Of a DNA stretch of 64,000 nt, positions 3,864 to 58,949 are shown piece by piece (position 1 is the first letter of the stretch; each line of letters opens with the position of its first letter). A program made the position numbers and the translations under genes. The notes below the pieces were generated by a model. It searched no databases and had not been told where the DNA came from. It saw nothing but the letters and a program-made list of their open reading frames with translations. This DNA comes from Negaprion brevirostris (Eukaryota), in NCBI GenBank assembly GCA_030324005.1, contig JARDVH010000163.1, forward strand, positions 77,415,348 through 77,479,347. The letters run 5' to 3'.

Positions 3864-4521
3864 TTGCTGGTACATATCATCTCTGCAATGAATGCTGCAA
3901 TTAAAGCCAAGTTCATTGAGCCATCACAGACAATCCTATCATGCCTGTTTTCGGAACACCAGAAGAACTGAACTGACATTTTCTAACGTAATTAAATACC
4001 TAGACCTTGCTTTAGGTTAAAATAAATACATCTTTGTATTTATCTCAACAAAATTTTTTAAAGATGCACAGGGGTTCTGCAACTGGCCTCAATGCCCCTG
4101 AGCTAGAAAGGAGATAATCAACCAAAGTTACCTGCTCTGATAGCAGCCCAACAACGACTAATGAAAGTTAACATGGGCATTTGACAGATCAGAGTTTGAC
4201 ATGGTGTCAAAAATGAATAAGCATTTGAAAATTGAGGATTATTCCCCACATGCAATTGTCCAGGAGTGTTAGATCAAATCAGGAATCGAATTTCAAATTC
4301 TGTTGGAGAGACATTTGTTTAGAAGCTAAGGAATCCATCTCTGAAAATACCCCAGCTCTGTTGCACTGTTCCACTGTAATTCAAGCAAATGAAAGACTCC
4401 AGAACAACATCTGAAAGGATTTATCTGACAGAGTAAGAAATTCCTCAAAGCAGCAGCCAAAGTTGTACTTTTACTTCTGGCACCTGCAACCCTTGTACTT
4501 GGGTAAATCATTTTCACTTAC

Positions 4522-4604
4522 TTCATGTCGAAGACAGACTTCATTCCCCAGAGAGCAGAGAGGGGCTGACCCCAGCTTGCTGATGTCAATAACAAGGATC
4601 CATC
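4522..4604 (-). CDS. DCAF1: DCAF1 coding exon 15
   Basis: [27 protein letters not shown]+AA|GTAAGT; 83 nt. Confidence 0.95.
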
Positions 4605-5148
4605 CTGCAAGTGCATATGCACAAAAATTACAAAAAAATTAAAAAGTGGGTCTGATCGCATATGTAGTAATAACAGTTTGATGGCAACTGTTACATGACC
4701 CCATAATCAACATTATTAGACATTATCTGATTACTTTACCTGGGATTGTGTTATTCACAAATTGGCTATCACATACCCATAGGACATTAGCAACTACACT
4801 TCAAAAATTACATTACTGGCTGTAAAGCTCTTTGCAACAACCTGAGATTGTGAAAGGTGCTGCAGAAATGTATTTTCTGGATATCTGTCTCAAACTCATT
4901 GACCATTCTGGTCACCCACCATTACGTGACCTCATTGGAGAAAGTACTTACATCACCAGGAATTTAGGCTTGTAATTACGATTGCCACAAGGGTAGGATT
5001 CCGATTTTAGTTGAAAAACACAAGAGAAACTTGAGAATAAATCTCAGGCTGATTATACAAGATACTTGGCAGGAAACCAAGAGAGATGGTGCACAACAGT
5101 GTATTGACGGGATAAAAGCAAAATTCTGCGGATGCTGGCAATCTGAAT

Positions 5149-5313
5149 AAATGATGTGGAGATGCTGGCATTGGACTGGGGTAAACACGGTAAGAAGTCT
5201 TAAAACATCAGGTTAAAGTCCAATGGGTTTATTTGGTAGCGGGGCAAACGCTAGTAGCTTTTGCTACCAAATAAACCTGTTGGACTTTAACCTGGTGTCA
5301 TAAGACTTCTTAC
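5149..5313. mobile_element. Head-to-head Penelope-like termini inside a second Penelope-like repeat (about 5115-5465)
   Basis: 51-bp inverted arms 5190-5240 and 5263-5313; caatctgaat duplicated at 5139-5148 and 5313-5322. Confidence 0.65.
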
Positions 5314-6340
5314 AATCTGAATTAAAAACAGAAAATGCTAGTAAAATACTAAGCCGGTCTGGCAGCATCTGCGGAGAACTCTGAAAAAGTCTTAAGGAGC
5401 AAAACGTTAACCCTGTTTCTCTCTTCACAGATGCTGTGTTTTCCCAGCAACTTCTGTTTTTATTGTTGAAGGAATATGTGCGTTAGAAACAAATATTTTG
5501 AAAAGTGGCTGTGAAGGGAGAGGAAATAGAAAATCAAAACGACTAACTCATGTCACATATCAATTTACTGCTAATTTTGACTTTGGAAAGGCAAGATCAT
5601 AAAAATCAGGAGTAACTAAAAGACTGTCATAAAGGACTTCACATCATGATGAATTCTGTTAACAGTGCCTGGTGCCACAATCACTTGATGTTGTGTATCC
5701 CTGGTCTGAAGATAGATTGTCCTACTGGGGTTTCACAGCGCAAGTCCTGATCACCCTCCCGCATCCTACCATAAGCAACACTTTGTAATCAAGAGCCTAG
5801 ACAGGCAGTGTCTGTTAGGGCGTGTGACTGAGGCATCATTGCAGATTCCAGCAGACCTCCATAACCAGATCTCAGGAGTGGGAACCCTAGGCTACCTACA
5901 CCATCACCTGATTCAGATCAGACAACGGAGACCAAATTAGGCATCTTTGCTCTTACACATTTCAGCTATTCACTGATTAAAGCCACTGAGGAGTGGACAA
6001 TTGGTTCCTTCTTCAGAAATTGGGGCATTAAAAAACTTAGCATTCCAGTACTAAGGGAGACCAGATATTAAAATGTGGCTACCTGTCCCCTCAGTGAGGC
6101 AATTTCAAAAGAGTTTTCCTACATTGTGTGCCTGATATTTATCCCTTAACCAAAATCACTATAAAAAATAAATCTGACCATCACGACTGCAGGATCTTGT
6201 TTGCAAACTGGTTGTTGCATTTCTACACAAAAATAATTGAGGTTACGAAAGGTGTTGTCTTTCCTCACAAGTCTTTCTTCAGAAGTGTAAATATATACGC
6301 ACACTCTGCAGAGCATAATGCCTGATAATATCTCACTTAC

Positions 6341-6539
6341 CCTGGATGGCTCTAGATGTGTTATGGCAGAGTTATGGCAGGCATATGTGGCCTCCTCTTG
6401 GCCACTAAATAAGTTGTAAAGCTTGAGTTCTCCAGTACATGTTCCCAGCATCAGAAACCGCTCTCGGGCAGAGAATGCACAGCATGTAAAACCACTGCCT
6501 TCCTCATCGGACTCCCTGAACACAGAAATGGGCCGGAAC
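6341..6539 (-). CDS. DCAF1: DCAF1 coding exon 14 (start of WD40 region)
   Basis: [42 protein letters not shown]...ITHLEPSR|GTAAGT; 199 nt. Confidence 0.96.
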
Positions 6540-7854
6540 CTGCGGTGGGATACAGAACATAAATCCTTTACTTAAGGATGATCAGCTTATGCAGCGAATG
6601 AGACACTTCAAACTGACATCAGGCTTGGAATTAACTTGCATTGATATAAATTCTATTTACACCATCTCTCTTTGCACGGAACACAGTCACTGTTATGTTC
6701 TGCAACCAAGAGATCAGAAACAGGACAAAACACCAACACATCTGCACTTTTGGTGGGATTATTGGGGGAGGAATGTTGAGTTCATCAAGGTAAGAAATAT
6801 TACAGCTAGGGATGGAACACTTTCCATTTACACACTCAATTCCATATCATGTTCACCCTAAAAATTTATCTATGCTGCCATATCAAATACTTCCAGGTCA
6901 GGTACAATACATGTTACAGAATAAATTTTTTTCTATTTTGTTCCAAACACCCTTCAGGGCAGTGACAGTGTACATTAGATAAGCTCCCTTTAACATATGC
7001 CATTTATAACAAAGAACAAAAACAGCCCGGGAAACAGGCCCTTTGGCCCAACGAGCCCGTGCCGCCATCTTAACACCACCAGTCCCCCCCTCCACCCATG
7101 ACCCTTATCTAATGTTTTATGGCCATCCANNNNNNNNNNNNNNNNNNNNNNNNNNNNNNNNNNNNNNNNNNNNNNNNNNNNNNNNNNNNNNNNNNNNNNN
7201 NNNNNNNNNNNNNNNNNNNNNNNNNNNNNNNNNNNNNNNNNNNNNNNNNNNNNNNNNNNNNNNNNNNNNNNNNNNNNNNNNNNNNNNNNNNNNNNNNNNN
7301 NNNNNNNNNNNNNNNNNNNNNNNNNNNNNNNNNNNNNNNNNNNNNNNNNNNNNNNNNNNNNNNNNNNNNNNNNNNNNNNNNNNNNNNNNNNNNNNNNNNN
7401 NNNNNNNNNNNNNNNNNNNNNNNNNNNNNNNNNNNNNNNNNNNNNNNNNNNNNNNNNNNNNNNNNNNNNNNNNNNNNNNNNNNNNNNNNNNNNNNNNNNN
7501 NNNNNNNNNNNNNNNNNNNNNNNNNNNNNNNNNNNNNNNNNNNNNNNNNNNCCTCAGAAGCCAATCGGCAGCATAGTTTAGCAGAAGATTTTCATTAAAG
7601 GCAATGGGATCCCCTGAATTAACATCCCGAATCAAGTAAAAGAATAAAATTGCAGTCCGTGCCACTTACTCCAACCATGTTCACTATGGACAGTCTCAGT
7701 TGGGGAAACAACGTTAACTGTGGCATTACCAAGAGGCTATTACAGAGGCACCTCTTAAAGCAGATTAAGTTCACCGGCTATTTAGTGTCGATAAATCCTC
7801 AGATAAAAAAGATTGGGAGATTTCAGGCAATGGCAGCTCTAATCAGCTGGTAAG

Positions 7855-9365
7855 TTTCAGTGAGGAGCTGAAGGAAATCAATAGAGAAATGGTTTTGGGA
7901 AAATTAATGGGACTAAAAGTAGATAAATCTCCTGGACCTGATGATCTTCATCCAGAGTAGTTAAGGAAATGGCTCTAGAAACAGTAGAACCATTGGTAGT
8001 CATCTTCCAAAATTCTTTGGATTCTGAAATGGCTCCTAGAGACTGAAGGGTGGCTAATATAAGCCTGCTATTCAAAAAAGAGAGTTAGTGAGAAATCAGG
8101 GAACCATAGACCAATGAGCCTAGCATAGGTGGTAGGGAAGTTGCTGAGTCCATTATCAAGGATTTCATAGCACAGCAGTTGGAAAATCCAACAAAGTTAG
8201 CACAGATATACAAAGGGGAAATCACGCACGACAAATCTACTAGAATTCTTGACTAATAGAGGCGAACCAGTGGATGTGATTTATTTAGACTTCCAGAAAG
8301 CTTTCAACAGGGTCTTACCTAGCAGATTACTATGTAAAGTTAAAGCCCATGGGATTGTGGGTAGTGTCTTGAGATGGATAGAAAGTTGGTTAGCAGAGAG
8401 GAAGCAAAGGGTTGGAATAAATGGGTCTTTTTTTTGATTGGCAGACAGTGACTAATAGCAGTACTGTGGTGATCAGTGCTCGGATCCCAAGTATTCATAT
8501 TATATTAATGATTTGGATGAGGGACATAAGTGTAGTATCTCCACATTTACAAAGAACAGNNNNNNNNNNNNNNNNNNNNNNNNNNNNNNNNNNNNNNNNN
8601 NNNNNNNNNNNNNNNNNNNNNNNNNNNNNNNNNNNNNNNNNNNNNNNNNNNNNNNNNNNGTATAGTGCTGGCCCTTCAGCCCACCACATCTGCGCTGGCA
8701 CATGATCCTTTTTAAACTAAAGACCTTTTCCATCTACGAGGTCTTTAAGCCCTCTATTCTCTGCCTATTCATGTATCAGTGTTTTACTTCAACTTTATAA
8801 GGCATTGGTGAGGCCACACCAGGAGTGTACAGTTTTGGTGTCCTTACCTGAGGGTGTTTTTTGCTATAGAGAGAGTACAGCAATGGTTTACAAGCTAATT
8901 CTTGGAATGGCAAGACTGTCATATGAGGAGAGACTATATTGGTTAGGATTGTATTCATTGGAATTTAGAAGAGAGAAGGCATCTCATAGAAATTTATAAA
9001 ATTCTAACAAGAATGGACAGGGTAGATTCAGAAAGAATGTTCCAGATGGTGGGAGAATCCAGAACTAGGGGTCACAATTTGAGGATAAGGGATAAACATT
9101 TTAGGGCTGTGTGAGGAAAAGTATCTTCACCCAGAGAGTGCCGAATCTGTGGAATTCACTACTGTAGAAAGTAGTTGAGGCCAAACCATTGTGTGACTTC
9201 ACGAAGGAATTTGATTTAGCTCCTGGGGTTAAAGGGATCAAGGGGTATGGGGTGAAGATGAGATCAAGATATTGAATTTGGTGATCAGCCATGATCTTAA
9301 TGAATGGTGGAGAAGGCTCGAGGAATCAAATGGCCTACTCCTGCTTCTATTTACTACTATGTTTT
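7855..9365 (+). mobile_element. CR1 LINE, degenerate RT region and 3' tail
   Basis: KSPGPDDLHPRV.KE and VDVIYLDFQKAF...IESWLAERKQRVGING motifs with stops and frameshifts; tail at about 9290-9365. Confidence 0.88.
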
Positions 9366-21605: not shown

Positions 21606-23511
21606 CTAGAAGAGATTCAAAAAAAATGTGATTAGTTCCAATTGATACAACAGTAGCCATCTTAACATCTGTGGCTGCCAAGCTCATGAATCAGAGAGGA
21701 CACGAGAGCCACATTCAAGGGCAATAAATGAGGGTTGAGCAATAAATGCTGGCCTAGCCATCAACGCCCACACTCCATAAATGAATAAAAAAGGTGCAAA
21801 AACAGGCCAATTCTTAGACTGATCAACATTAGATCAATAAAAAGTTTCCTTGAAAAAAAACAGTCTTTGATCTGAGGCACAATTTCTAAATGGAAAATTA
21901 TATTCCTCACGTTATTATGCCTCTGGAAAGAAAAATATCCACAGCCGTGATTTGCTCTGGATGCAAACTGAAATGGGTTACTCAAACATGACCAGCTTTC
22001 TGTATGGGAAGATACAAAGTTACAATGGGACATTGTCCATGGATAATGTCACAAACCAACATGAATCAAAGCTTCTTAAACTAACATACACCCTCCATCT
22101 AAGTTAATATGTTTAGAAAGACGCCTACCCAACATTACACACACATCTAAGCTTCCCTCAGGGTCTCCCTAGCTGAGTAGAAAGATAAACATTTTTTAAA
22201 ATTAAAAATAAGCTATCCTTTTCACCCTTAAAGAAGCAGAACTCAACTTCACACAACATCAAAGCAACATGGCAAAGCATTTTGCACAAAAATTCTCACT
22301 TTGATACAGTGACAGGATACAATGACAGTTTTAGCCTGCTCACTGTTGAAAGGGACCTGGTATCTAAGAGAGAAGTCACTTAATAAAGCTTGGTTTAAAA
22401 TCTACATCCATCCTGAAGTTGCAGGGGCTACTTGAGAACATGTGGGTACGAGACACGAGCACACGTGGCTCTCAGTAAACTGGTTCATACAGACATCAAC
22501 ATGGTCTTCAATTTGTATAAAGGATAAACTTGAATAGCACCCAAAATAGTTGTTGTTGAAAAGGAGCGCAGCAGGAGACAATTTGATAACAACTCGATTT
22601 TTATCAATTCATTGATTCTATTTCCACCCTTCTCTCACCTGGTCCATTTCCAACATTTTCCTTTCTTGACTTCTTGGGTTTCTGGTGATAGACTGTCTGT
22701 CAATATTTGTTATGAGTCCATCAACTCAAGACAGCTATCTTAGAGCATAGAGTTGCACAGCACAGAAAAGGCCCGTCAGCCCATCAAGTCTCCACCAACA
22801 AGAACTACCATTAAAGTTGCGCGAATCTTATTTTCCAGCACGGTCCCATATCCTTGAATGTTGTGATTTTTCAAGTGCTATTCCAAATATTTTAATAGGT
22901 TGTAAGGCCTCCACCATCCCAGGCAGTGGATTCCAGAATCTCAGCACCCTCGGGGAGTGAAAATATTTTGTCTCAAATCCCCTCCTGCCCCTCATCGTAA
23001 AACTATGCCTCCTTGTGATTTACCCCTCAACCAAGAGGAACAGCTGCTTCCTAACACCCCATCCATATCCCATAATCTTATATACCTCAATCAGCCTTCT
23101 GGTCTAGCCTACACATGACTCAGGTTGACTCAACGTCTCGAGGACAATTAGGAATAGACAACAAATGCTGGCCTTGCTAACAACAAGCACATCTCATAGA
23201 TGATTAATAAGAAAAGCTATTTCAAAACCATTAACCAATCTCTTGTTATTTCATATCTCCAGAATGCAGTCTTTTTTCAAAACTTGATACTGAGTCGTAA
23301 GTTCTTGCCATTGAATATATTTTGCATTTGAAAGAAAATGGAGGACCTGTTCACCTGAATACTGTCCTAAAACTCGACTTTAGGGCCTATCCTCTCTCTT
23401 TTTGCTACAACTGTTTTGTAATTTTACAATATATTATTTGGTGTCAAAATCCCCCACCTACGCTGAAAAGACTTACAGCTCTCCACACAGGTTTCACATA
23501 TCTGTACGCAC

Positions 23512-36618: not shown

Positions 36619-37295
36619 TGGCACGGTATCATGTTGACTAATTTATTGGAATTCCTTGAGAAAGTAACAAGCAACGTGGAGAAAGGGGAACCTGCCAATG
36701 TGCTGTCCCAAGATTCTCAAGACATTTGATAAGGTGTCACATCAAAGATTACTGCATAAAATAAGAGCTCATGATGTGTGGGATAACATATTTGCAGGGA
36801 TAGAGGATTGGTTAGCTAACAGGAAGCAGAGAGTAGGAATCACTGTATATTTTCAAGCTGGCAAGATGTGACAAGTGGAAGGCCACAGGAATCAGTGCTG
36901 GGACCTCAACTATTTACAANNNNNNNNNNNNNNNNNNNNNNNNNNNNNNNNNNNNNNNNNNNNNNNNNNNNNNNNNNNNNNNNNNNNNNNNNNNNNNNNN
37001 NNNNNNNNNNNNNNNNNNNTGACAAGTGGAAGGCCACAGGAATCAGTGCTGGGACCTCAACTATGTACAATGTACAGCAATAACTTGGATGCAAGGACTG
37101 AATGTATGTTTGCTAAAGATAGGTAAGTAGGTTCTGAAGGATATAAAAAAAATCTGCAAAGGGACATAAATTAAGTGAGTGGACAAAAATTTGCAGATAC
37201 AGCATGACGTAGGAAAATGTGAACTTGATCATTGTTGATAGGAAGAATAGAAAAGCAGCATATTATTTAAATGAAGAGAGCTGGCAGATATAGGA

Positions 37296-37492
37296 GGCCA
37301 TGATGTTGATTACCTGTAAATACTCGCATTCCAACCATTGTTTTGTAAATTGAGTTTGTGTCTTTATATGCCCTGAAGGTGAACAGAACTCCGACTCTCC
37401 TGACAAAGGAGCAGTGTTCCGAAACCTAGTGGCTTTTGCTACCAAATAAATCTGTTGGACATTAACCTGGTATTGTGAGACTTCTTACTGAG
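37296..37492 (+). mobile_element. Penelope-like terminal fragment inserted in a CR1, 10-bp TSD
   Basis: Aligns by eye with 52210-52390; flanked by agatatagga at 37286-37295 and 37493-37502. Confidence 0.7.
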
Positions 37493-37660
37493 AGATATAG
37501 GAAGGACTTAGAGATTTAGGCATCCTGGGGTGTGAAAACAAAAGGTAGCACACATGTAGGTAGTGATTAGGAAAGCAAATTGAATGTTGCTCTATTGCAA
37601 GAGAAATAGAATATAGAAGGATATTTTGCTACAATTGTACAGAGTGTTGGTGAGATCATG

Positions 37661-38557: not shown

Positions 38558-39271
38558 ATGTCTGCAATACTGTGTACAGTTTTGATCTCCTTATTTAAGG
38601 AAGGATAAATACATTAGAAGCGCTAGAAGTTTCATCTGATTGATACCTGGGATTATCTAATGAGGAAAGGCTGGGCCTGTATACATTCAAGTTTGGAATA
38701 TTGAGAGGTGAAACACAAGATCCTTAGGAGAAGGAATCCTTAAGAGTCACCTGACAGAGTAGATACAGAAAGGATGTTTCCTCTTCTTGGGAGAGACAGG
38801 GACTCCCATTTAAAACAGATGAGAAGAAATATTTTCTCTTAGCAGGTTGAAAGTTGTTGGAATTCTACCCTGGATAGTAGTGAATGCAGATTCATTGAAC
38901 ATTTTAAAGACAGAAATTGATAGATTATTGACTAACAAAAGTGTCAAAAGCTTTTGGGATAGGCAGAATATGGAATTGAGACTGCAATCAGATCAACCGT
39001 AATCTTACTGAAAGACAGAGCAAGCTGAAGGGTTCGAAAAGCCTTCTGCTAATTTATATTTTCACATGTAGCTTCCCCGTAACTGCTTTTTGAAAAGGAT
39101 AGTTTGGAGACGAGCAATGGAACCAAACATTTCTCTAACCTTAGTTCCAAATTTTATTTGGCTTTTGGATCCTGAGATAACTAGCAAAGCTCAAATATGG
39201 TGAATCCACTGGCAATGTATTACTGGAATCACCCCAAATACAAATACTGGGTTTCCTCAAAGCTGGCGTTT

Positions 39272-39326
39272 GTTACCAAATAAACCTGTTGGACTTTAAC
39301 CTGATGTTATGAGATTTCTTACTGTG
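39272..39326 (+). mobile_element. Short Penelope-like terminal remnant
   Basis: gttaccaaataaacctgttggactttaacctgatgttatgagatttcttactgtg, same end as the other copies. Confidence 0.6.
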
Positions 39327-47994: not shown

Positions 47995-49600
47995 GAGCAC
48001 AAACGACAAAAGGAGCAGGCCTTTCAAGCTAGCTCCACCATTCAATAAAACCATGAATGATCTTGAATCTCAAATCATCTTCCAATGCTTACCCACACTT
48101 CTTGATTCCCTTGGTAACCAAAAACCGATGTATTGGTTTTTAATATACTCACTAACGGAACATTTTCAGCTCCCAGGATAGATAGAGAATTTCAAAGGAT
48201 TCACAACGGAGTGAAGAAATTTCTCCTGCTCAATCCTGAATGAGACTATGATCCCGAGCTGTAGACAATCCAACCAAAGGAAACATCCTCCCAGCATGTA
48301 CTGTGACAAATCCCTTAAGTTTGTATGTTTCAATTAGTTTGCCCTCACTCTTCACTCAAGTGAATACAGACCAGTTGACTCAATTTCTCTTCATAGGATA
48401 AATCATACATTCCAGAAATAGTTTTGGTGCAACGGTTGTTGCATTCCCTCTTAAGGCAAGTATACTCTTCCCTAGATAAGGGGAGGATACACAATTCTCC
48501 TAATATAATTGAAATCTTCTTTACTCTTACACTCCCATCCTTTTGTTTTAAAGGTGAACAGACACTTCATATTCTCCACCGTGCACTTCACCTGCATGTT
48601 AGCTTTATGATTTGTGTACAAGGGCACCTATTTCTCTCTGAATACCAACATTTCCCATCTCTTACCATTTAAAAACACTCCACTTTTTTCTTACCAATTG
48701 GCTAACTTCGCACTTCTCCACATTATATTCCATCTGCCACATTCTTGTTCACTCACTTAACTCACCTAATAGCAGCATCTGCATTCTCCCTAACCTCTTT
48801 CTCATAGGAGGCGGCCATTTGGCCCATCAAGTTTGCACATCAACAATTCCACCCAAGTTCTTACCCAGTAAATCCTATGTATCTACCCTGCCACCAAGTG
48901 ACAGTTTTACATGGCCAATCAACCTAACCTGCACATCTTTGCACCGTGGGAGGAAACCGGAGCACCCGTAGGAAACCCACACAGACACACAGAGCACATG
49001 CAAACTTCACACAGACAGTGACCGAAGCTGGAAGTGAACCAGGGTCCCTGGTGTGTGATCCAAGCTTGTGTTTTTAAATGATAACTTTTCTGTTTGTAAT
49101 CACTCACCTAACCTTTGCATCAGCAGCAAACTTGGATACATTGTTCTCCATTCCCTCATCTAAATCATTGATAGGGATTGTAAGTAGCAATCATTGATAC
49201 GGATTTTAATTGGCAAAAACCCAAACATTGATCCCTGTGATATCCTATTAATTATAGTCTGTCAACCTGAAAATGACCCATTCACTCCTACTTTGTTTTC
49301 TATCCATTAATTAATCCTTAATCCATGCCAATATTACCATGACCTTTATTTGTCTAACACTTAGGTAGCACCTTATCAAATTTTTTAAAAATTCAAATAA
49401 ACTGGTTTTCCTCTCACCTACCATGCCAGCTACACTTCAAAAACTAATTCCCTTCCTTAAATCTCTGTTAAATCTGATCAATATTAGGATTCTTGAAGTG
49501 CCCTGTTACCAAACTCTCTAATAACTGATTTCCTTATTATTGATGTCAAGACAAATAGTCTGCTGTTGTTCATTTTCTCTCTCCCTCTTTCCTTGAATAG
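47995..49600 (-). mobile_element. Old CR1 LINE (minus) with an internal HE1-type SINE at about 48805-49060
   Basis: Reverse-complement CR1 tail at 48005-48065 followed by RT-region remnants. Confidence 0.7.
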
Positions 49601-49724
49601 TTACAATTGCTACCAATGGCAACTCAGGAACAATGGAGTAGCAGCACAATTATACAATTGGCTATTTGGAGTTTTGCAATGAGTCCACTTGAAATCACGC
49701 ACTAAACATATGCTTTCCCTGGAA

Positions 49725-50231
49725 GTTCTTTTCATGTACCTAACAAGTAAAATGAACTCAAATTAACTTAGGGACAAATTAAGAGGGGCAGCCCCCAAAA
49801 AGGGAAGACGGCCCAAACAGAAACCAAAGTCCAAAGGAAACTTAAAACATTAAATCAAAATGTGATTATAAGGGCCTAAAACACACACCAGCCCCGGCGG
49901 GCCCAGAAGGTGCCAACCCCGCCCATGGACACCGCACGCTCCCACTCCAGGGACACCAGGCCGCGAACGTAGCCGCAGTAGAGGGTCAGGCAGTCGGGAT
50001 GGACAGCCCTGTCGATCGGCCGCTGCCTGGACCTACTGATGGCACGTCTCGCCAGGCCTAGGAGCAGGTTCACGAGGAGGTCAGCGTCCCGATACGCCCC
50101 TCTCCGCACCAGGTGCCTGTAGATCAGGAGCGTGGGACGGAAGTGCAAACAAAACATCAATAAAAGGTGTTTGAGAAAACCAAAAAGGGTGTGCAATCTA
50201 TAACACAAAACATAGACATGGTCCACAGACT
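49725..50231 (-). mobile_element. Tx1-like (L1-clade) retrotransposon, 5'-truncated 3' end
   Basis: ORF 49876-50226 (DHVYVLCYRLHTLF...LHFRPTLLIY...DLLVNLLLGLARRAI.RSR) resembles the recalled C-terminus of Xenopus Tx1 ORF2; CpG-rich; imperfect 16-bp TSD at 49709-49724 and 50232-50247. Confidence 0.75.
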
Positions 50232-50752
50232 TATGCTCTCTCTGGAAACTACATAGTCACCAAGTGAACAGGAACATGTCTCCAGTTAACTGAACAAAGG
50301 GAGATTCTCTGTGTTACTGCTTCTTAATCACAACACTATATTTTATTTTTCCAAAACATTTTTGAAGTGTTCTGCTCATGTCACTGGTATGATTACCTAG
50401 TCTGAGAAACAAAAGCAATTGAATTAGGTTTTTATTCCAGCAAATAGGTTTTAACCATTTAAGAGAGTGTCTTAATGATGCATTTTCATTCAATTCATTC
50501 ACGGGAAAGTGGCTAGCGCTGTCTGCGTGGGTTTCCTTCAAGTTTCCCTCCACAATCCAAAGATGGGCGGGTTAGGTTGATTGGCCATGCTAAATTGTCC
50601 CTTAATGTCTGGGGATTAGCGGGGTAAATATGTGGGATTACGGGAATAGGGCCTGGGTGGAATTGTGGCCGGTGCAGAATTGATGGGCCGAATGGCCTCC
50701 TTCTGCATTGTAGGGATTCTACAGTTCTGAATGGAGCCGTGTTAATAGTCAT

Positions 50753-51099
50753 GGGCGGCACGGTAGCACAGTGGTTAGCACTGCTGCTTTACAGCTCCAG
50801 GTCCTGGGTTCGATTCCCGTCTCGGGTCACTGTCTGTGTGGAGTTTGCACATTCTCCTCGTGTCTGTGTGGGTTTCCTCTGAGTACTCCGGTTTCCTCCC
50901 ACAGTCCAAAGATGTGCGGGTTAGGTTAATTGGCCATGCTAAGAAATTGCCCCTTAGTGTCCAGGGTTGTGTAGATTAGCGGGATTAGTGGGTATAATAT
51001 GTAGGGATGTAGGGGTAGGGCCTGGGTGGGATTGTGTTTGGTGCAGACTCGATGGACCGAAAGGCCTCTTTCTGCATTGTAGGGTTCTATGATTCGATG
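50753..51099 (+). mobile_element. Full-length HE1-type V-SINE (truncated copy adjacent at about 50515-50725)
   Basis: tRNA-like head gggcggcacggtagcacagtggttagcac...gggttcgattccc with A/B boxes; central ggttaggttaattggccatgct; CR1-like tail. Confidence 0.88.
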
Positions 51100-52148
51100 A
51101 TACACTTCTTGAAGTCGATGACCATCTCTTTAACTTTGTTGACATTGAAGGAGAAACATTGTTGTCGTCATGTCAGGAACTTTTGGAACTTGACTTGGGA
51201 TAAACTTTGATCTGGGCCCTCTGCCCAAAGCAGTCAGGCCCACTATGTTTTACATTGGATTAAAAGGAACAGTTTAAAACATAACCATCTTATGATGTCC
51301 AGTGGTCATAAGTGTGTGGCAAAATCTAATGTCAGGCTATGTCCATTTTACATGATGGAAATATTATTTAAAGCTTAAAATGAGTCAGATTGCATGTAGT
51401 TTAAATCATAAATTCAACAACCTGATTCGATTTCCCATGAAATGCACCTAGTGTTTGATGCCATTGTTACGTGGAATTAGTCTTCAGGTATTTCTGTGCA
51501 GATGAAGATATTCGTGCTGCGCAAAGCCTGTATAGCTACATGTTTCACATTCTACTGTACCACCCTTTTGGGGTTTGTGCTAACCCTTTTTGAAATTGTT
51601 AGTCAGTTTTTGGCTCTCCCGAATGACAGGTGTATGCATCACTTAAACCTCTAAGGAGCACATTGGAAATTTGTTAGGCAGCCCATCTGTCCAGACCTTA
51701 GTGAATATGTTCACAGTACAAAACTGCCTGCGCTTCAGCACTTTTTCAAAATAAATTGTTAATGTCATTCAGAAAGACTGCAATTATGACTGGTGTGGGA
51801 AGTGGAACATTCTTACAATAGAACACAATGCTCTGAAGTTGGTACTCATGCACGTTTTTAGGGAAGAACAGAGAGAACGTTACATCTAATATGTGCTGTG
51901 CCCCGATTAAGTGCTAATGGGCATTAGATGCTAATAATAGGTGCCAAATGAGGGGGGGAGTATTCTGTTGCCAAAATGAGAATGAGAAAGATTTAATTAA
52001 TGAGACAAATTTGGTTCCTAAATTCAAAGTGCGCATGAAGCAATGTGCNNNNNNNNNNNNNNNNNNNNNNNNNNNNNNNNNNNNNNNNNNNNNNNNNNNN
52101 NNNNNNNNNNNNNNNNNNNNNNNNNNNNNNNNNNNNNNNNNNNNNNNN

Positions 52149-52391
52149 ACACATCTCTTTAACCTGTGCTTAACACTCTCTCCACTCACATTGTCTGTAC
52201 CTTTAAGACTTGATTACCTGTAAAGGCTCGCACTTCAATCATCATTTTGTAAATTGAGTTTGTGTCTTATATGCTCTGTGAATAGGGCTCCCACTCACCT
52301 GATGAAGGAGCAGCAAGTGCTCCGAAAGCTAGTGGCTTTTGCTACCAAATAAACCTGTTGGACTTTAATCTGGTGTTGTGAGACTTCTCAC
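52149..52391 (+). mobile_element. Penelope-like element terminal repeat (carries the hammerhead)
   Basis: Shares the end ...gctaccaaataaacctgttggactttaa..tggtgttgtgagacttct with copies at 5263, 37440 and 39275; left side runs into an N gap. Confidence 0.7.
52296..52334 (+). ncRNA. Minimal hammerhead ribozyme motif (Penelope-associated type)
   Basis: cac-CTGATGA-a-GGAGCA-gcaag-TGCTCC-GAAA-GC-TA-gtg: both core boxes, 6-bp stem II, palindromic AGCT stem III, CUA triplet, short cac/gtg stem I. Confidence 0.7.
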
Positions 52392-52551
52392 CAAAATGAC
52401 CACATTTATTAGCATACATTCCCCATTCGTTGGCCTCTGGAATTGCTGCCCAGTTCAATGGCAGGCCTCTTCTCAAATAACACTATTCAGATTTGGTCGG
52501 TGAGTCAGCTGTTGCCACTGCACCTATTGAAATGCAAGAGGTCAAGCTTAC

Positions 52552-52628
52552 CTGGATGCCTATCATCAAAAGGATCAGGGTCAGCCTTATGGTACTCCTC
52601 AGTCTCCTTCTCAATGAGGTCTGAAATT
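52552..52628 (-). CDS. DCAF1: DCAF1 coding exon 2
   Basis: ttctttttag|A; ISDLIEKETEEYHKADPDPFDDRHP+G|GTAAGC; 77 nt. Confidence 0.95.
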
Positions 52629-53167
52629 CTAAAAAGAAAAATGACCATTCTTTCAGCACAGTAACCCGAAATACCATCTTCAGGCTATTTGATCTGTGTT
52701 ATGTCTATGTCCCCAGTTAACTGAACAAAAGGGGAATTCTCTACATTAGTGCTTCTCAATCACAACACTTTTCTGTTTTCCTGAAACATTTTAAAGTTTT
52801 GCTCATGTCACTGATATGATTACCTAATCTGGGAAATCAAGGTCGAATTAGATTTTTATTCCAGTAAATGAGTTTTAACCATTTAAGGGAGTGTCTTAAC
52901 GGTGCATGTTCATTCAACTCTTTCAGGGGGAGGTGGTGGCATTGTTACTGAATTAGTAATCCAGAGACCAGGGAACAAATCCCACTATGGCAGATGGAAA
53001 AATTTGAATTCAATAAAAGTCTGGAATTAGGGAAGTCCAAATGATGACCATGAAACCATTGTTGATTGTCAAATGTCTTTTAGGGAAGAAAATCTGCTGT
53101 TGTTACTTGGTGTGCCGACATGTGTCTCCAGGTCCACAACGATGTGGTTGACTCTTAATTGTCCTCT

Positions 53168-53501
53168 TAAATGTTTGCCAGATATACTGGCCGGCTGCTG
53201 ACTAAGTCTGAAATTTTAAACATTCCCCTTAAACATAAATATATATTTATAATTCATGGCAGTATGAATGTTGACATTCAGTTATGGGATGTGGAACTGT
53301 CCTCTGAAATGGTTTAGCAAGCAGTTCAAGGGCAATGAGGGATGGGCAATAAATGCTGACCCAGTTAGCACCACCCACATCCCATAACTGAATTTCAAAA
53401 TTCATACTGCCATAGATTATAAATATATATTTTTGTTTAAGGGGCATGTTTAAAATTTCAGATTTATTCTGCAGGTAGCCAGTATGTCTGGCAAACATTT
53501 A
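53168..53501. repeat. Inverted repeat (arms 53168-53294 and 53375-53501)
   Basis: taaatgtttgccagat...gttatgggatgtgg versus ccacatcccataac...ctggcaaacattta. Confidence 0.9.
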
Positions 53502-53761
53502 GCTCAACGATTGTAAAAACAAGTTCAAGACTAATTTCAGCTAGGTACTTGGTACATTGATAGAGTTAATGGACTTCTATTTACTTAAGTTTCCCCATGG
53601 GATTTTTGATAGAGTGATCGACAAGGTCATGCGATGATGTGGTTTTACATGCATAGCTAAGCCTGTAGCAGAAAAGTACCTTCTACCATTCTGGCTGAGA
53701 ACTATTTGAAGACTGAGGATGGAATCCTCTCTCCCCTCACTGTCATGGGAACTATAGCCAG

Positions 53762-53854
53762 CAGGCCAGAAATTTTGATGGACCATTTAAAGGTCCATTG
53801 ACCTTGGGCAGCAATTTCCAGCCTTGGGGCGAGCACGGCCAGAAAATCTCATCC
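53762..53854. mobile_element. Short MITE-like element (copies about 44817-44922 and, inverted, 14166-14294)
   Basis: Shared aaggtccattgac...gatttt...cttggggc...ccagaaaatc block with imperfect terminal inverted repeats. Confidence 0.55.
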
Positions 53855-54657
53855 TAGGGTTTCTACAAGCTGCCCGAGGCTCATTTTCACTTAAAGCTTC
53901 AAGCCTATTGACTTTCATTATAGNNNNNNNNNNNNNNNNNNNNNNNNNNNNNNNNNNNNNNNNNNNNNNNNNNNNNNNNNNNNNNNNNNNNNNNNNNNNN
54001 NNNNNNNNNNNNNNNNNNNNNNNTTTCACTTAAAGCTTCAAGACTATTGACTTTCATTATAGCAAGTATATTTATGGTTAACAACAGTATTTAACTGGCA
54101 TTTACATCTCTAAGAGAAATGTTGCTTATTTGGAACTGAAAGTGATTAATTAGAAATTAGTTTCCTTTCACTTTCAAATGTTGTTCAACTATTAACAGTT
54201 AAGCTGCTTCATTTGTTAGTTATATTTAAACTGTTTTATCAAATAAGATTTTACTATAAAAAAATCCCTAATTTGACAGTGGAATTAATCCTGGAATGAA
54301 ACATCCAATCTTCACATTTGTGCCAAAATAGAAAAATAGTTGGCTCCTAGTCTGGCATCCTAATGTAATTTGTTTAGGGCCCTAACAACTCCAAAAATTG
54401 AACTGATTCTGATGTGATCATCCAAGTTAATGTTTTTAACAAAAACTTTTCTGTTTGTAATGGTAACTACTTTTCTTGGGGAATGGAACACTTTCCACTT
54501 TGGTGAGTCAGTGTTGCATCAAGCACTCACAGGTGTAGTTTGCATAATTATATGCAGAATAAAGCTCCTCCTATTGTTTTGTGGGTTAACTCATGGCCTA
54601 ATCTATATGGAGAAAGTTTCCCTTTAGTGATTGACTTAGGTCTGACTTGAGCAGAGT

Positions 54658-54972
54658 TCATAGATCATAGAACCCTACAGTGCAGAAGGCAGCCATTCAG
54701 CTCACTGAACCTGCACCAATCACAATCCCACCCAGGCCCTATCCCTGTAACCCCATGCATTTACCCTAGCTAATCTCCCTGACATTAAGGGGAAATATAG
54801 TATGCCCAATCCACCTAACCCACACATCTTTGGACTATGGGAGAAAACCAGAGCATCTGGAGAAAACCCATGCATACACAGAGAACATGCAAACTCCACA
54901 CAGACAGTCACCCAAACCAGGAATGGATCCTGGATTCCTGGTGCTGAGGCAGCAGTGCTAACCACTGTGCAA
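54658..54972 (-). mobile_element. HE1-type SINE
   Basis: Reverse complement of the 50753 copy, tail to head. Confidence 0.82.
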
Positions 54973-55399
54973 CAAGACTAATTTATTTACATTATATATA
55001 CTAAGCTACATGTTCAGTATACCTCTGTTGCATGCAGACTATTTCATATTCCTTAGAGTTCCTAGCCCACGAGTGCTGTTTCATCATGATATGCATCACT
55101 ATATCATCACCCACTGTGTGACATCTACAATACCATAGTGGCAAATGCTGACCTTGCCAGCAACATTCACGTGAATGGAAAATAAAATTGTCCAGACACT
55201 GTCTCCCAAATGCAGTCTTGACTCCTCTCTTCCCAACCCCAATGGGCACTTTACCCCCCACAACTACCCCCAGTTCATCATGTCTTACCATCCCCAGCTG
55301 CAGCATCCAATTTTTCACTGAGTGCCATAAATCCCAAGATAAACTAATGTTTTGACTTGAGAGTCAGAATTTCCAACCTCTACATTCCTAACTGCTTAC

Positions 55400-55509
55400 T
55401 TGGTCAAGACAGGGACAACATTCTGCCCATTGTTGTTCTCCCTTTCCCATTGCTCCAGTAATGAAGTAAGCTCAGCTTTGGAATCAACATTTGCAGGAAC
55501 GGAAGCCAT
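55400..55509 (-). CDS. DCAF1: DCAF1 coding exon 1 (start codon; exon begins 55517 with 8 nt of UTR)
   Basis: ctctcaccag|GCTCAACA ATG; MASVPANVDSKAELTSLLEQWERENNNGQNVVPVLT+AA|GTAAGC; 110 nt. Confidence 0.95.
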
Positions 55510-56689
55510 TGTTGAGCCTGGTGAGAGGGCAGAGAAAGAGTCAATAAATTGTTAGGTACACTAGAATCACCACTCTCTCCCTCCCTAGTCCATTCCTTAT
55601 ACTTATCTTTGAGATGGAGTTTTAATTCCAGTTGATTTGGGATTGGAACCCACAAAAAATATTGCACCTTTTATTCTGACAGTGCTGTTCTAACATAATA
55701 TCAGAAAGATGCTGCAAAAGCTTTGGGATTCCCACTGACAGATGAGTTGCACAAGCTTAATATCCAAGGCTGCATGACTTGAACCGTGGGTCAAAATTCA
55801 CCCGTGACTCTCATAACAAAGTGATCTCACTAAGTAGCAGGTTGATCGTTTAAATGTATCTTGTCTCCCCCCAGTCTACATTAATCCCATCTGATCAAAG
55901 TCAGTTTAAACACCAAAATGGATTTATTACACTTTAGCAGACTAGACCAAAAATAACAGCAATGAGGGAGAAACTGTTATGGTCAGAGGGCTTTTCTGTG
56001 CTACTTATTACTTGGAGTCAGTGACAGTCAATGCTGAGCTAACCCTCCAGCTCCAGCAAGTTGCTAAGAGAGCGCTGCGTTGTAAAATACCTTTGACGTG
56101 GTTTACTGCTCACCCTCTTTTGCCTGTGGTACTCAGCAAACGCTCAGTTACAGACACTTGAGCCTATCTGGCTGTGGGTTACAGATCAAACCAAGCTTTT
56201 TTGTTCCCTCCCCTCTTTCATATTGCAAAAAGTCATCATTGTACAGTAAAAGAGAAACTTTATAAGTGAATATGAATATTTCAGTCGTGCACTTTTGAGA
56301 GGTCAATGAGACACAAATAAAAATATAATAACAAGGCAGATATTTTATTCTGGAAGCCTGGAATAAAGTGCAAACACTTTAATTTCCTTCTCATGGTATA
56401 CACCACATGAAGCGTGGTCTTCAACATGTACGACATTTTCTAAAATCAAATTTAAAAGATGTAATCATCAGATCCAATCATCCACACACATTATAGGTTC
56501 ATCCATTTAATTGTTTTGCAATGCTCTTCTTTGTTTCAAATTACTCCCCACATTCGTCCATGTACCATCTAGACACAGTAAAAGTGAAGAGAATTGTATT
56601 TTTGTAACTTAGCTGAACACACCATGAAGATTACACAATGTACACTTTACTGAAACTGCACTGACAACTCTGATATTACAACAAGAATT

Positions 56690-58174: not shown

Positions 58175-58817
58175 AGAAACATAGAAACCCTACAGCACAC
58201 ATAGGCCATTCGGCTCATCAAGTCTGCACCGACCACAATCCCACCCAGGCCCCACCCCCACATCCACCCACTAATCCCTCCAACCTATGCATTCCAGGAC
58301 ACTATGGACAATTTTAGCATGACCAATCAACCTAGGTAAATTGTAGGTAAAATGTTAGAATCCGTCATCAAGGAGAAAATAGCGAGTCATCTTGAGGAGA
58401 ATTGTTTGATAGAGCAGACGCAGCATGGTTTCGTTAAGGGGAAGTCGTGTCTGACAAATTTATTGGAGTTCTATGAGGATGTNNNNNNNNNNNNNNNNNN
58501 NNNNNNNNNNNNNNNNNNNNNNNNNNNNNNNNNNNNNNNNNNNNNNNNNNNNNNNNNNNNNNNNNNNNNNNNNNNNNNNNNNCATGATCTTATTGAATGG
58601 CGGGGCAGGCTCGAGGGGCTAGATGGCCTACTCCTGCTCCTATTTCTTATGTTCTAACCTGCACATCTTTGGACTGTGGGAGGAAACCGGAGTACCTGGA
58701 AGAAACCCACGCAGACACGAGGAGAATGTGCAAACCCCACACAGAGTGACCCAAGTGGGGAATCGAACCCAGGTCCCTGGAGCTGCGAAGCAGCAGTGCT
58801 AACAACTGTGCTACCGT
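58175..58817 (-). mobile_element. HE1-type SINE split by a CR1 insertion
   Basis: Tail half 58175-58334, head half 58655-58817. Confidence 0.82.
58335..58654 (+). mobile_element. Young CR1 (collapsed by gap) inside an HE1-type SINE
   Basis: MLESVIKEKIASHLE...QHGFVKGKSCLTNLLEFYED and an intact tail; SINE continues on both sides. Confidence 0.85.
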
Positions 58818-58949
58818 ACCAGACTTCTATTAACTTCATTGCTCACTTCATAGGTATGGAAACAAGAAAGAGAGTTCAATGTGAACTATAAATAGCAGCA
58901 ATGTCACTAGGAATAAGCATTGTGCGGTGTGTGTGAACTATCTACTCAC

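What the first reader, a model, noticed from the sequence alone, without database searches (positions are those of the whole stretch)
52296..52334. Intact minimal hammerhead ribozyme in a Penelope-like repeat, antisense to DCAF1
Seen: cac CTGATGA a GGAGCA gcaag TGCTCC GAAA GC TA gtg, with both catalytic boxes, a perfect 6-bp stem II, a self-complementary AGCT in place of stem III, a CUA cleavage triplet and a 3-4 bp stem I. Established: Penelope-like elements carry such minimal hammerheads in their terminal repeats, and these are thought to cleave as dimers. Inference: this is a ribozyme-bearing Penelope or retrozyme-like family of sharks. The N gap at 52049-52148 may hide a second tandem copy that would supply the dimer partner. 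The motif sits about 220 bp from coding exon 2 on the opposite strand.
Basis: partly seen in the sequence, partly recalled or inferred. Interest (0 to 1): 0.75.

Follow-up and report, generated by a model that had tools for sequence, protein, structure and literature searches.

The report
Shark Penelope-repeat minimal hammerhead relic
The small self-cutting-RNA motif is really there, but it is one copy of a very abundant shark repeat that is likely the tail end of a Penelope-type jumping gene, a pairing described in 2014, and this lone old copy, facing backwards in a DCAF1 intron, probably does nothing.

Summary
The motif is exactly as described (52296-52334, +). It is the only minimal-hammerhead match in the window, and such a match arose in 4 of 300 simulated windows. 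It lies in a repeat (52149-52392) onto which 38,000-74,000 contigs per genomic run map. The family keeps both boxes, the AGCT palindrome and stem I. Its stem II is 5 bp; the 'perfect 6 bp' comes from a 4-nt insertion in this copy. All four hallmarks of Penelope minimal hammerheads (Cervera and De la Pena 2014) are met. The family also shows dispersed 5'-truncated copies, ragged 3' tails and head-to-head fold-backs, as Penelope-like elements do. No linked RT/GIY-YIG frame could be retrieved, so that membership is inferred. The host is a shark. The copy is old and antisense, so DCAF1 pre-mRNA carries no ribozyme. In context its GAAA box is predicted to be sequestered. The 100-N gap is probably 2.5 kb or more; a partner there is neither shown nor excluded. 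The scan noted this kind of thing before in other shark genomes (36 notes). Ordinary: a new member of a known kind.

The parts
52149..52392 (+). Visible part of a high-copy repeat, likely the 3' pseudo-LTR of a Penelope-like element; its 5' part runs into the gap
   Evidence: Summed contig depth 7e4-4e6 against about 4-13 in the flanks in run X1; 38,252 contigs laid; the family consensus continues for 30 letters upstream of 52149. Four other copies or fragments in the window.
52295..52335 (+). Minimal type I hammerhead motif, with stem I of 3 Watson-Crick pairs plus 1 U-G
52299..52306 (+). Core box C3-A9 plus the extra unpaired A before stem II
   Evidence: the extra nucleotide is a min-HHR hallmark in PMC4209133
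52307..52323 (+). Stem II, 6 bp with a 5-nt loop in this copy; 5 bp with a 3-nt loop in the family
   Evidence: Pair probability about 0.9 for five of six pairs in six of seven contexts, 0.12 in one; 4 nt left out at 52312 in 57, 61 and 65 contigs of the three genomic runs; same 4-nt gap in the 37k copy
52324..52331 (+). GAAA box, self-complementary AGCT (15.1-16.1) in place of helix III, and CUA triplet; predicted cut after 52331
   Evidence: a two-strand fold can form a 4-bp helix III; cleavage untested
52324..52340 (+). Predicted competing 7-bp hairpin that hides the GAAA box and the cleavage site
   Evidence: Probability 0.25-0.73 in the six contexts that include it; stem I probability 0.06 or less in those contexts
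52049..52148 (.). Assembly gap written as 100 N, true size probably 2.5 kb or more
   Evidence: 12 of 21 gaps in the window are exactly 100 N; contigs X3 record 25 and X12 record 9 run on 2,627 and 2,574 letters beyond the left edge
52552..52628 (-). DCAF1 coding exon 2; the motif lies antisense in the following intron
55400..55509 (-). DCAF1 coding exon 1
37306..37488 (+). Second family copy, 5'-truncated, with a decayed hammerhead (G8 changed to A, palindrome broken, one G-U in stem II)
   Evidence: 22 mismatches in 178 aligned bases
5150..5313 (.). Head-to-head fold-back of two 3' ends of the family, without a complete hammerhead; the left arm carries a longer tail
   Evidence: 51-nt arms 5190-5240 and 5263-5313, 90% complementary
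39264..39322 (+). 3' tail fragment of the family, without the hammerhead

Best explanation
The motif is a minimal type I hammerhead sequence inherited from a very abundant shark repeat that is likely the 3' pseudo-LTR of a Penelope-like retrotransposon, and this lone, old, antisense copy is probably inert. Shown: the motif, the family, its abundance and spread, the orientation against DCAF1. Inferred from published elements: in the active parent element two hammerheads of a tandem transcript would pair through their AGCU palindromes to build helix III, or the element's protein would help one fold, and the RNA would be cut weakly after position 17 (52331 here). Reverse transcription from the RNA's 3' region that stops early would scatter short tail copies, some with an inverted arm. 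This copy would be one such insertion, made before the host split from organism D and drifting since; it kept its core by inheritance and gained a sixth stem II pair by a 4-nt insertion.
For: All four non-descriptor hallmarks of PLE min-HHRs in PMC4209133 are present or partly seen: a sequence family, extra nucleotide before 10.1, G10.1-C11.1, palindromic 15.2-16.2. 38,252, 72,217 and 74,421 contigs lay on the stretch in X1, X3, X12, with deep cover confined to 52149-52392. Family loose-end consensuses keep both boxes, GGAGC/GCTCC and CAC/GTG, and vary at N7 (T/C), loop 2 and position 17 (A/C), all tolerated positions. Copies start at different places and end at a ragged tail. An inverted joint 52293/52345 recurs in 9, 5 and 13 contigs and a fold-back lies in the window, matching the 5' truncation, inverted copy and tail described for PLEs in PMC8557442. 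X12 record 16 bridges the element's end (40 letters) and unique flank, in an organism differing at 31 of 447 letters in the left flank; so the insertion is old. At about 6% decay per copy, 14 core sites stay intact with probability about 0.41, and 1 of the 2 window copies spanning the motif is intact. Lone min-HHRs did not cleave in PMC4209133; the anole PLE hammerhead needed the PLE protein and was dispensable for insertion in vitro in PMC11167929; 1 of 9 Xenopus dimers cleaved in bioRxiv 10.64898/2026.07.22.740005.
Against: No RT or GIY-YIG frame was linked to this family, so 'Penelope' rests on architecture alone. No compensatory change in stem II is visible in the rows shown, and the T/C changes at N7 and loop 2 could be CpG decay. 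Depth does not rise steadily towards the 3' end (1.3e6 at 52176-207, 7e4 at 52272-303, 4e6 at 52336-67 in X1). The gap is unresolved and could hold an ORF or a second copy. Whether the orthologous copies keep the hammerhead could not be seen, because their contigs break inside the repeat.
Confidence: 0.8

Rival explanations
1. The family is a non-autonomous, hammerhead-bearing element (non-LTR retrozyme or short PLE derivative) that borrows the Penelope protein and may cycle through tandem or circular RNA; it has no ORF of its own.
For: No ORF link found. Extreme abundance of a short unit. The 2026 preprint reports non-LTR retrozymes, mean consensus 363 bp, in its one chondrichthyan genome and derives such elements from pLTRs.
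Against: No tandem array of this repeat in the window. 3' loose ends run into unlike flanks (agreement 0.43-0.51). The only joint listed with 5 or more contigs in each of the three genomic runs is inverted. Retrozymes in PMC7229834 carry canonical hammerheads in tandem, while minimal ones go with PLEs.
Confidence: 0.12
2. This particular copy is active or co-opted: a partner hammerhead in the gap, or another transcript, completes the dimer, and a plus-strand RNA antisense to DCAF1 is cut at 52331.
For: All core letters are intact, and the 4-nt insertion lengthens rather than breaks stem II. The insertion is shared with another organism. A two-strand structure with both active sites can be drawn at -25.5 kcal/mol. 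The gap is unseen.
Against: That structure is less stable than two separate monomers (-27.4) even at 43 nt, and far above the two-strand minimum (-40.8) at 56 nt; stem I has probability 0.06 or less once flanks are added. An intact core is expected by chance in a large share of copies. The DCAF1 strand has no hammerhead match. Orthologous contigs cross about 2.6 kb of the gap unbroken, whereas the locus-specific contigs listed stop inside this repeat on the right side.
Confidence: 0.06
3. The motif is a chance arrangement of bases in an unrelated repeat.
For: No Rfam hammerhead model matches, even at E 10. The loose two-box pattern is common by chance.
Against: 4 of 300 and 0 of 300 simulated windows match the relaxed and strict descriptors. 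The features not in the descriptor also match, and subfamily differences fall on tolerated positions. Rfam's hammerhead models have a helix III (own knowledge), so a miss is expected.
Confidence: 0.02

Closest known systems
Minimal hammerheads (min-HHR) in the pseudo-LTRs of metazoan Penelope-like elements (Cervera and De la Pena 2014, PMC4209133; parts 1-2 of 4 read)
   Same: No helix III, palindromic 15.2-16.2, extra nucleotide before stem II, G10.1-C11.1, stem II longer than 4 bp, short stem I, mostly solo genome-wide copies, several variants per genome.
   Different: Host is a shark; the parts read name fishes, coelacanth, Xenopus and reptiles, and 2 of 3 supplement files held no shark term. 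Family stem II is 5 bp (6-8 in the examples described there). Abundance appears higher than the 4,000-9,000 motifs given for coelacanth and Xenopus, though contig counts are not copy numbers.
Poseidon element of Anolis carolinensis (PAc) hammerhead (Frangieh et al. 2024, PMC11167929; parts 1-2 of 4 read)
   Same: Vertebrate PLE hammerhead with stems I and II only, followed by a variable tail some tens of bases downstream of the cut site.
   Different: In PAc the ORF starts inside the hammerhead; no ORF was linked here. PAc cleavage was shown and is protein-assisted; nothing is shown here.
Non-LTR retrozymes of animals (Cervera and De la Pena 2020, PMC7229834, passages; Li, Clavereau and Pollet 2026, bioRxiv 10.64898/2026.07.22.740005, parts 1-3 of 5)
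   Same: Type I hammerhead in a short repeat; reported in one chondrichthyan genome together with PLEs.
   Different: Defined by tandem units each with a hammerhead; this copy is solo as far as visible and the family looks dispersed. Whether it is one of the preprint's chondrichthyan families is unknown (supplements not seen).

Membership tests
min-HHR (Cervera and De la Pena 2014) | Core CUGANGA, GAAA and UH with closing stem I | tested here: met
   family consensus
min-HHR (Cervera and De la Pena 2014) | Extra nucleotide between 9 and 10.1, and G10.1-C11.1 pair | tested here: met
   A52306; G52307-C52323
min-HHR (Cervera and De la Pena 2014) | No helix III; palindromic 15.2-16.2 | tested here: met
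   AGCT 52327-30; kept in family loose-end consensuses
min-HHR (Cervera and De la Pena 2014) | Consensus families with covariation and compensatory changes | tested here: inconclusive
   Family exists and variants fall at N7, loop 2 and position 17; no compensatory stem II change in the rows shown, 68 rows hidden; the 37k copy has one G-U
min-HHR (Cervera and De la Pena 2014) | Weak self-cleavage as dimer or with extended helix III | not testable with these tools
   Folding only
Penelope-like elements (EN+) | Single ORF with telomerase-like RT and GIY-YIG endonuclease next to the pLTR | tested here: inconclusive
   No genome held; tail-frame protein search blank; collection scans blank or chance
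Penelope-like elements (EN+) | Hammerhead near the 3' end, followed by a variable tail | tested here: met
   Copies stop near 52388-52392 or run on; loose-end consensus continues about 20 letters, then flanks differ
Penelope-like elements (EN+) | Frequent 5' truncation and adjacent inverted truncated copies | tested here: met
   Window copies start at reference positions 52210, about 52325-52333, 52325 and 52341; fold-back 5190-5313; inverted joint in 9, 5, 13 contigs
Penelope-like elements (EN+) | Partial-tandem pLTR-ORF-pLTR copies | not testable with these tools
   Needs a long-read assembly
Non-LTR retrozymes | Tandem units, each with a type I hammerhead | tested here: not met
   No array in the window; no recurrent head-to-tail joint among 15 of 140 listed; the gap is unseen
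Non-LTR retrozymes | Circular and linear unit-length RNA | not testable with these tools
   Only contigs available
Rfam hammerhead families | Covariance-model match | tested here: not met
   No hammerhead hit up to E 10

The most novel reading that the evidence does not exclude
This shark family is one of the most abundant ribozyme-bearing repeats in a vertebrate and carries a built-in off-switch: a hairpin that hides the GAAA box and cut site until the Penelope protein or a second copy refolds it. Its recurrent fold-back junction just 5' of the hammerhead (52293/52345) would mark where the ribozyme fold halts or redirects reverse transcription, tying the motif to the insertion mechanism.
Probability: 0.1. 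Interest if true: 0.45.

Novelty: new member of a known kind. Interest (0 to 1): 0.15.

Why it matters
Little as a single locus. Minimal hammerheads in Penelope repeats are published for fishes, coelacanth, amphibians and reptiles, and hammerhead repeats plus PLEs are reported for one cartilaginous fish. What these ribozymes do for Penelope elements is still open (PMC11167929, PMC8557442). A family with tens of thousands of fragments in several sharks would be good material for a population-level test of which positions were under selection in active lineages, but this old antisense copy is not the one to study.

Tried and rejected
Own genome: none held. Rfam: no hammerhead hit in 48000-56000 or 52250-52400. 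Collection scans with family motifs: none in viral contigs or prokaryote genomes; 3 metagenome matches did not extend beyond 20-24 bases and were dropped as chance. Protein search with the 40-residue open frame over the longest tail (5093-5212, minus), looking for longer proteins: no candidate, weak evidence. Sequencing runs: no RNA holder listed. Run X19 (RNA is a guess) had depth in 9 of 30 bins, essentially the repeat, and none over 52432-52540; this says nothing about this copy. No listed contig spans the gap. No tRNA head near the element; the bacterial promoter scan is uninformative for a shark. A 22-nt, 82% inverted match 51916-37/52406-27 was set aside as probable chance. Earlier scan notes by sequence and for this genome: none. 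Print searches for a shark Penelope hammerhead gave a review where 'shark' is the ribozyme's namesake and the 2026 preprint; subscription papers and Repbase or Dfam were not searchable, and unseen supplements (file 1 of PMC4209133; all of the preprint's) may list this family.

Full report
Observation. The 39 bases at 52296-52334 read as described, and the hammerhead numbering puts the cut after A52331. A descriptor for minimal hammerheads finds this site and no other on either strand of the window. First-order Markov simulations of the window matched in 4 of 300 cases, and in 0 of 300 with stricter rules set after seeing the motif. The two boxes alone are not enriched (9 matches, chance mean 4.9). 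Rfam gives no hammerhead hit, which I expect from own knowledge that its models include helix III.

Setting. The window holds DCAF1 on the minus strand. Coding exon 1 is at 55400-55509 and exon 2 at 52552-52628, so the motif lies 218 bases into the next intron, on the other strand. The DCAF1 transcript therefore carries the reverse complement, which has no match. The host is a shark: a 186-residue DCAF1 segment is 99% identical to Mustelus asterias, 98% to Scyliorhinus torazame, 94% to the whale shark, 91% to a ray, 85% to Callorhinchus and at most 73% to the other 115 listed proteins (120 of 441 listed).

The family. Self-comparison finds four other pieces in the window: 37306-37488, 39264-39322, and a head-to-head pair at 5190-5313. 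Only the 37k copy spans the hammerhead, and it is decayed. Laying public contigs on 51600-52540 at 80% likeness (4 of 24 listed runs) put 38,252, 72,217, 74,421 and 1,962 contigs on the stretch, with deep cover confined to 52149-52392. These are fragments, not copy numbers, but the repeat is plainly very abundant in at least three organisms. Loose-end consensuses keep both boxes, a GGAGC/GCTCC stem, the palindrome and CAC/GTG. They vary at N7 (T or C), in loop 2 (AGC or AGT) and at position 17 (A or C). The first two could be CpG decay; the third is a transversion that keeps the cleavage rule. Four letters at 52312 are left out in 57, 61 and 65 contigs, and in the 37k copy, so the family stem II is 5 bp and the sixth pair here comes from an insertion. 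No compensatory change in stem II appears in the rows shown; 68 rows were hidden.

Is it Penelope? PMC4209133 (parts 1-2 of 4) lists the traits of minimal hammerheads in Penelope-like elements: consensus families, an extra base before stem II, G10.1-C11.1 and a palindromic 15.2-16.2. All are present, covariation excepted. PMC8557442 (12 of 18 passages) describes PLE insertions as 5'-truncated, often with an adjacent inverted copy and an optional 30-40 bp tail. Here copies start at different places, most stop near 52388-52392 while some run on, and an opposite-strand joint 52293/52345 recurs in 9, 5 and 13 contigs. The defining RT plus GIY-YIG frame could not be linked: no genome is held, and searches were blank or chance. 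Membership is therefore inferred. Against a retrozyme reading, there is no array in the window, 3' ends run into unlike flanks, and no recurrent head-to-tail joint is among the 15 of 140 listed.

The gap. Twelve of the 21 gaps are exactly 100 N, which suggests a placeholder. Contigs of two other organisms align up to 52046-52048 and continue 2,574 and 2,627 letters (records 9 and 25). Their letters were not shown. The gap is probably 2.5 kb or more and ends inside the repeat. Because the locus-specific contigs listed stop inside this repeat on the right side, a well-preserved second copy early in the gap is unlikely, but a diverged copy or an ORF remnant is not excluded.

Is this copy active? 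It is old: X12 record 16 joins 40 letters of the element's end to unique flank in an organism that differs at 31 of 447 letters in the left flank. The two window copies differ at 22 of 178 bases, about 6% each; at that rate 14 core sites survive with probability about 0.41 and 30 sites with about 0.15 (crude, uniform rate). An intact core needs no selection. Folding keeps stem II in six of seven contexts, but stem I falls to 0.06 or less once flanks are added, and a hairpin 52324-52340 hides the GAAA box and cut site with probability 0.25-0.73. The two-site dimer scores -25.5 kcal/mol against -27.4 for two monomers at 43 nt; such models ignore core contacts, so this is only a hint. In print, a lone min-HHR did not cleave and dimers cleaved weakly; the anole PLE hammerhead cleaved only with the element's protein and was not needed for insertion in vitro (PMC11167929, parts 1-2 of 4); 1 of 9 Xenopus dimers cleaved (bioRxiv 10.64898/2026.07.22.740005, parts 1-3 of 5).

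Novelty. The class is known since 2014. The 2026 preprint reports hammerhead retrozymes in its one chondrichthyan genome and PLEs in five vertebrate classes; its supplements were not seen. Searches found no paper describing this shark family; PMC7229834 (12 of 30 passages) has no mention of 'shark', and PMC6155905 (passages) uses it only for the ribozyme's name. Earlier notes of this scan record the same kind of motif in other shark genomes (36 notes hold the search words); these are unchecked AI notes and I did not test whether they concern the same family. Verdict: correct catch, ordinary object; new member of a known kind; interest 0.15.

Noticed in passing
window 53168-53501: Long fold-back: 127-nt arms, 90% complementary, 80 nt apart; gives sub-threshold miRNA-precursor hits in Rfam. 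Part of the spacer matches 21714-21786. Looks like an inverted insertion or a miniature inverted-repeat element in DCAF1 intron 1.
   Followed up: no
window 5150-5462: Fold-back of two 3' ends of this family, directly followed by a second, older inverted pair (5323-5349/5436-5462 and 5363-5377/5422-5436) of another repeat.
   Followed up: partly
family joint at window 52293/52345: An opposite-strand junction recurs at the same two places in three genomic runs (9, 5, 13 contigs); one arm stops 6 bases 5' of the first core base, not at the cut site. Unexplained.
   Followed up: no
window 37270-37525: The second copy's flanks share a 9-10 nt word on both sides, a possible target-site duplication, with about 10 extra bases before the element.
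   Followed up: no
window 36920-37019 and 53924-54023: These 100-N gaps are flanked by duplicated sequence (51 and 39 bases), which suggests assembly overlap artefacts; the gap at 52049 has no such overlap.
   Followed up: partly
window 50500-51100, 54660-54975, 58650-58820 and others: Many copies of a second abundant repeat that I recall as the HE1-type SINE of sharks; the name comes from memory, not from a call.
   Followed up: no
window 37306-37488 and 52149-52392: Both copies that span the hammerhead, and the 39k tail, are antisense to DCAF1; too few to call a bias.
   Followed up: no
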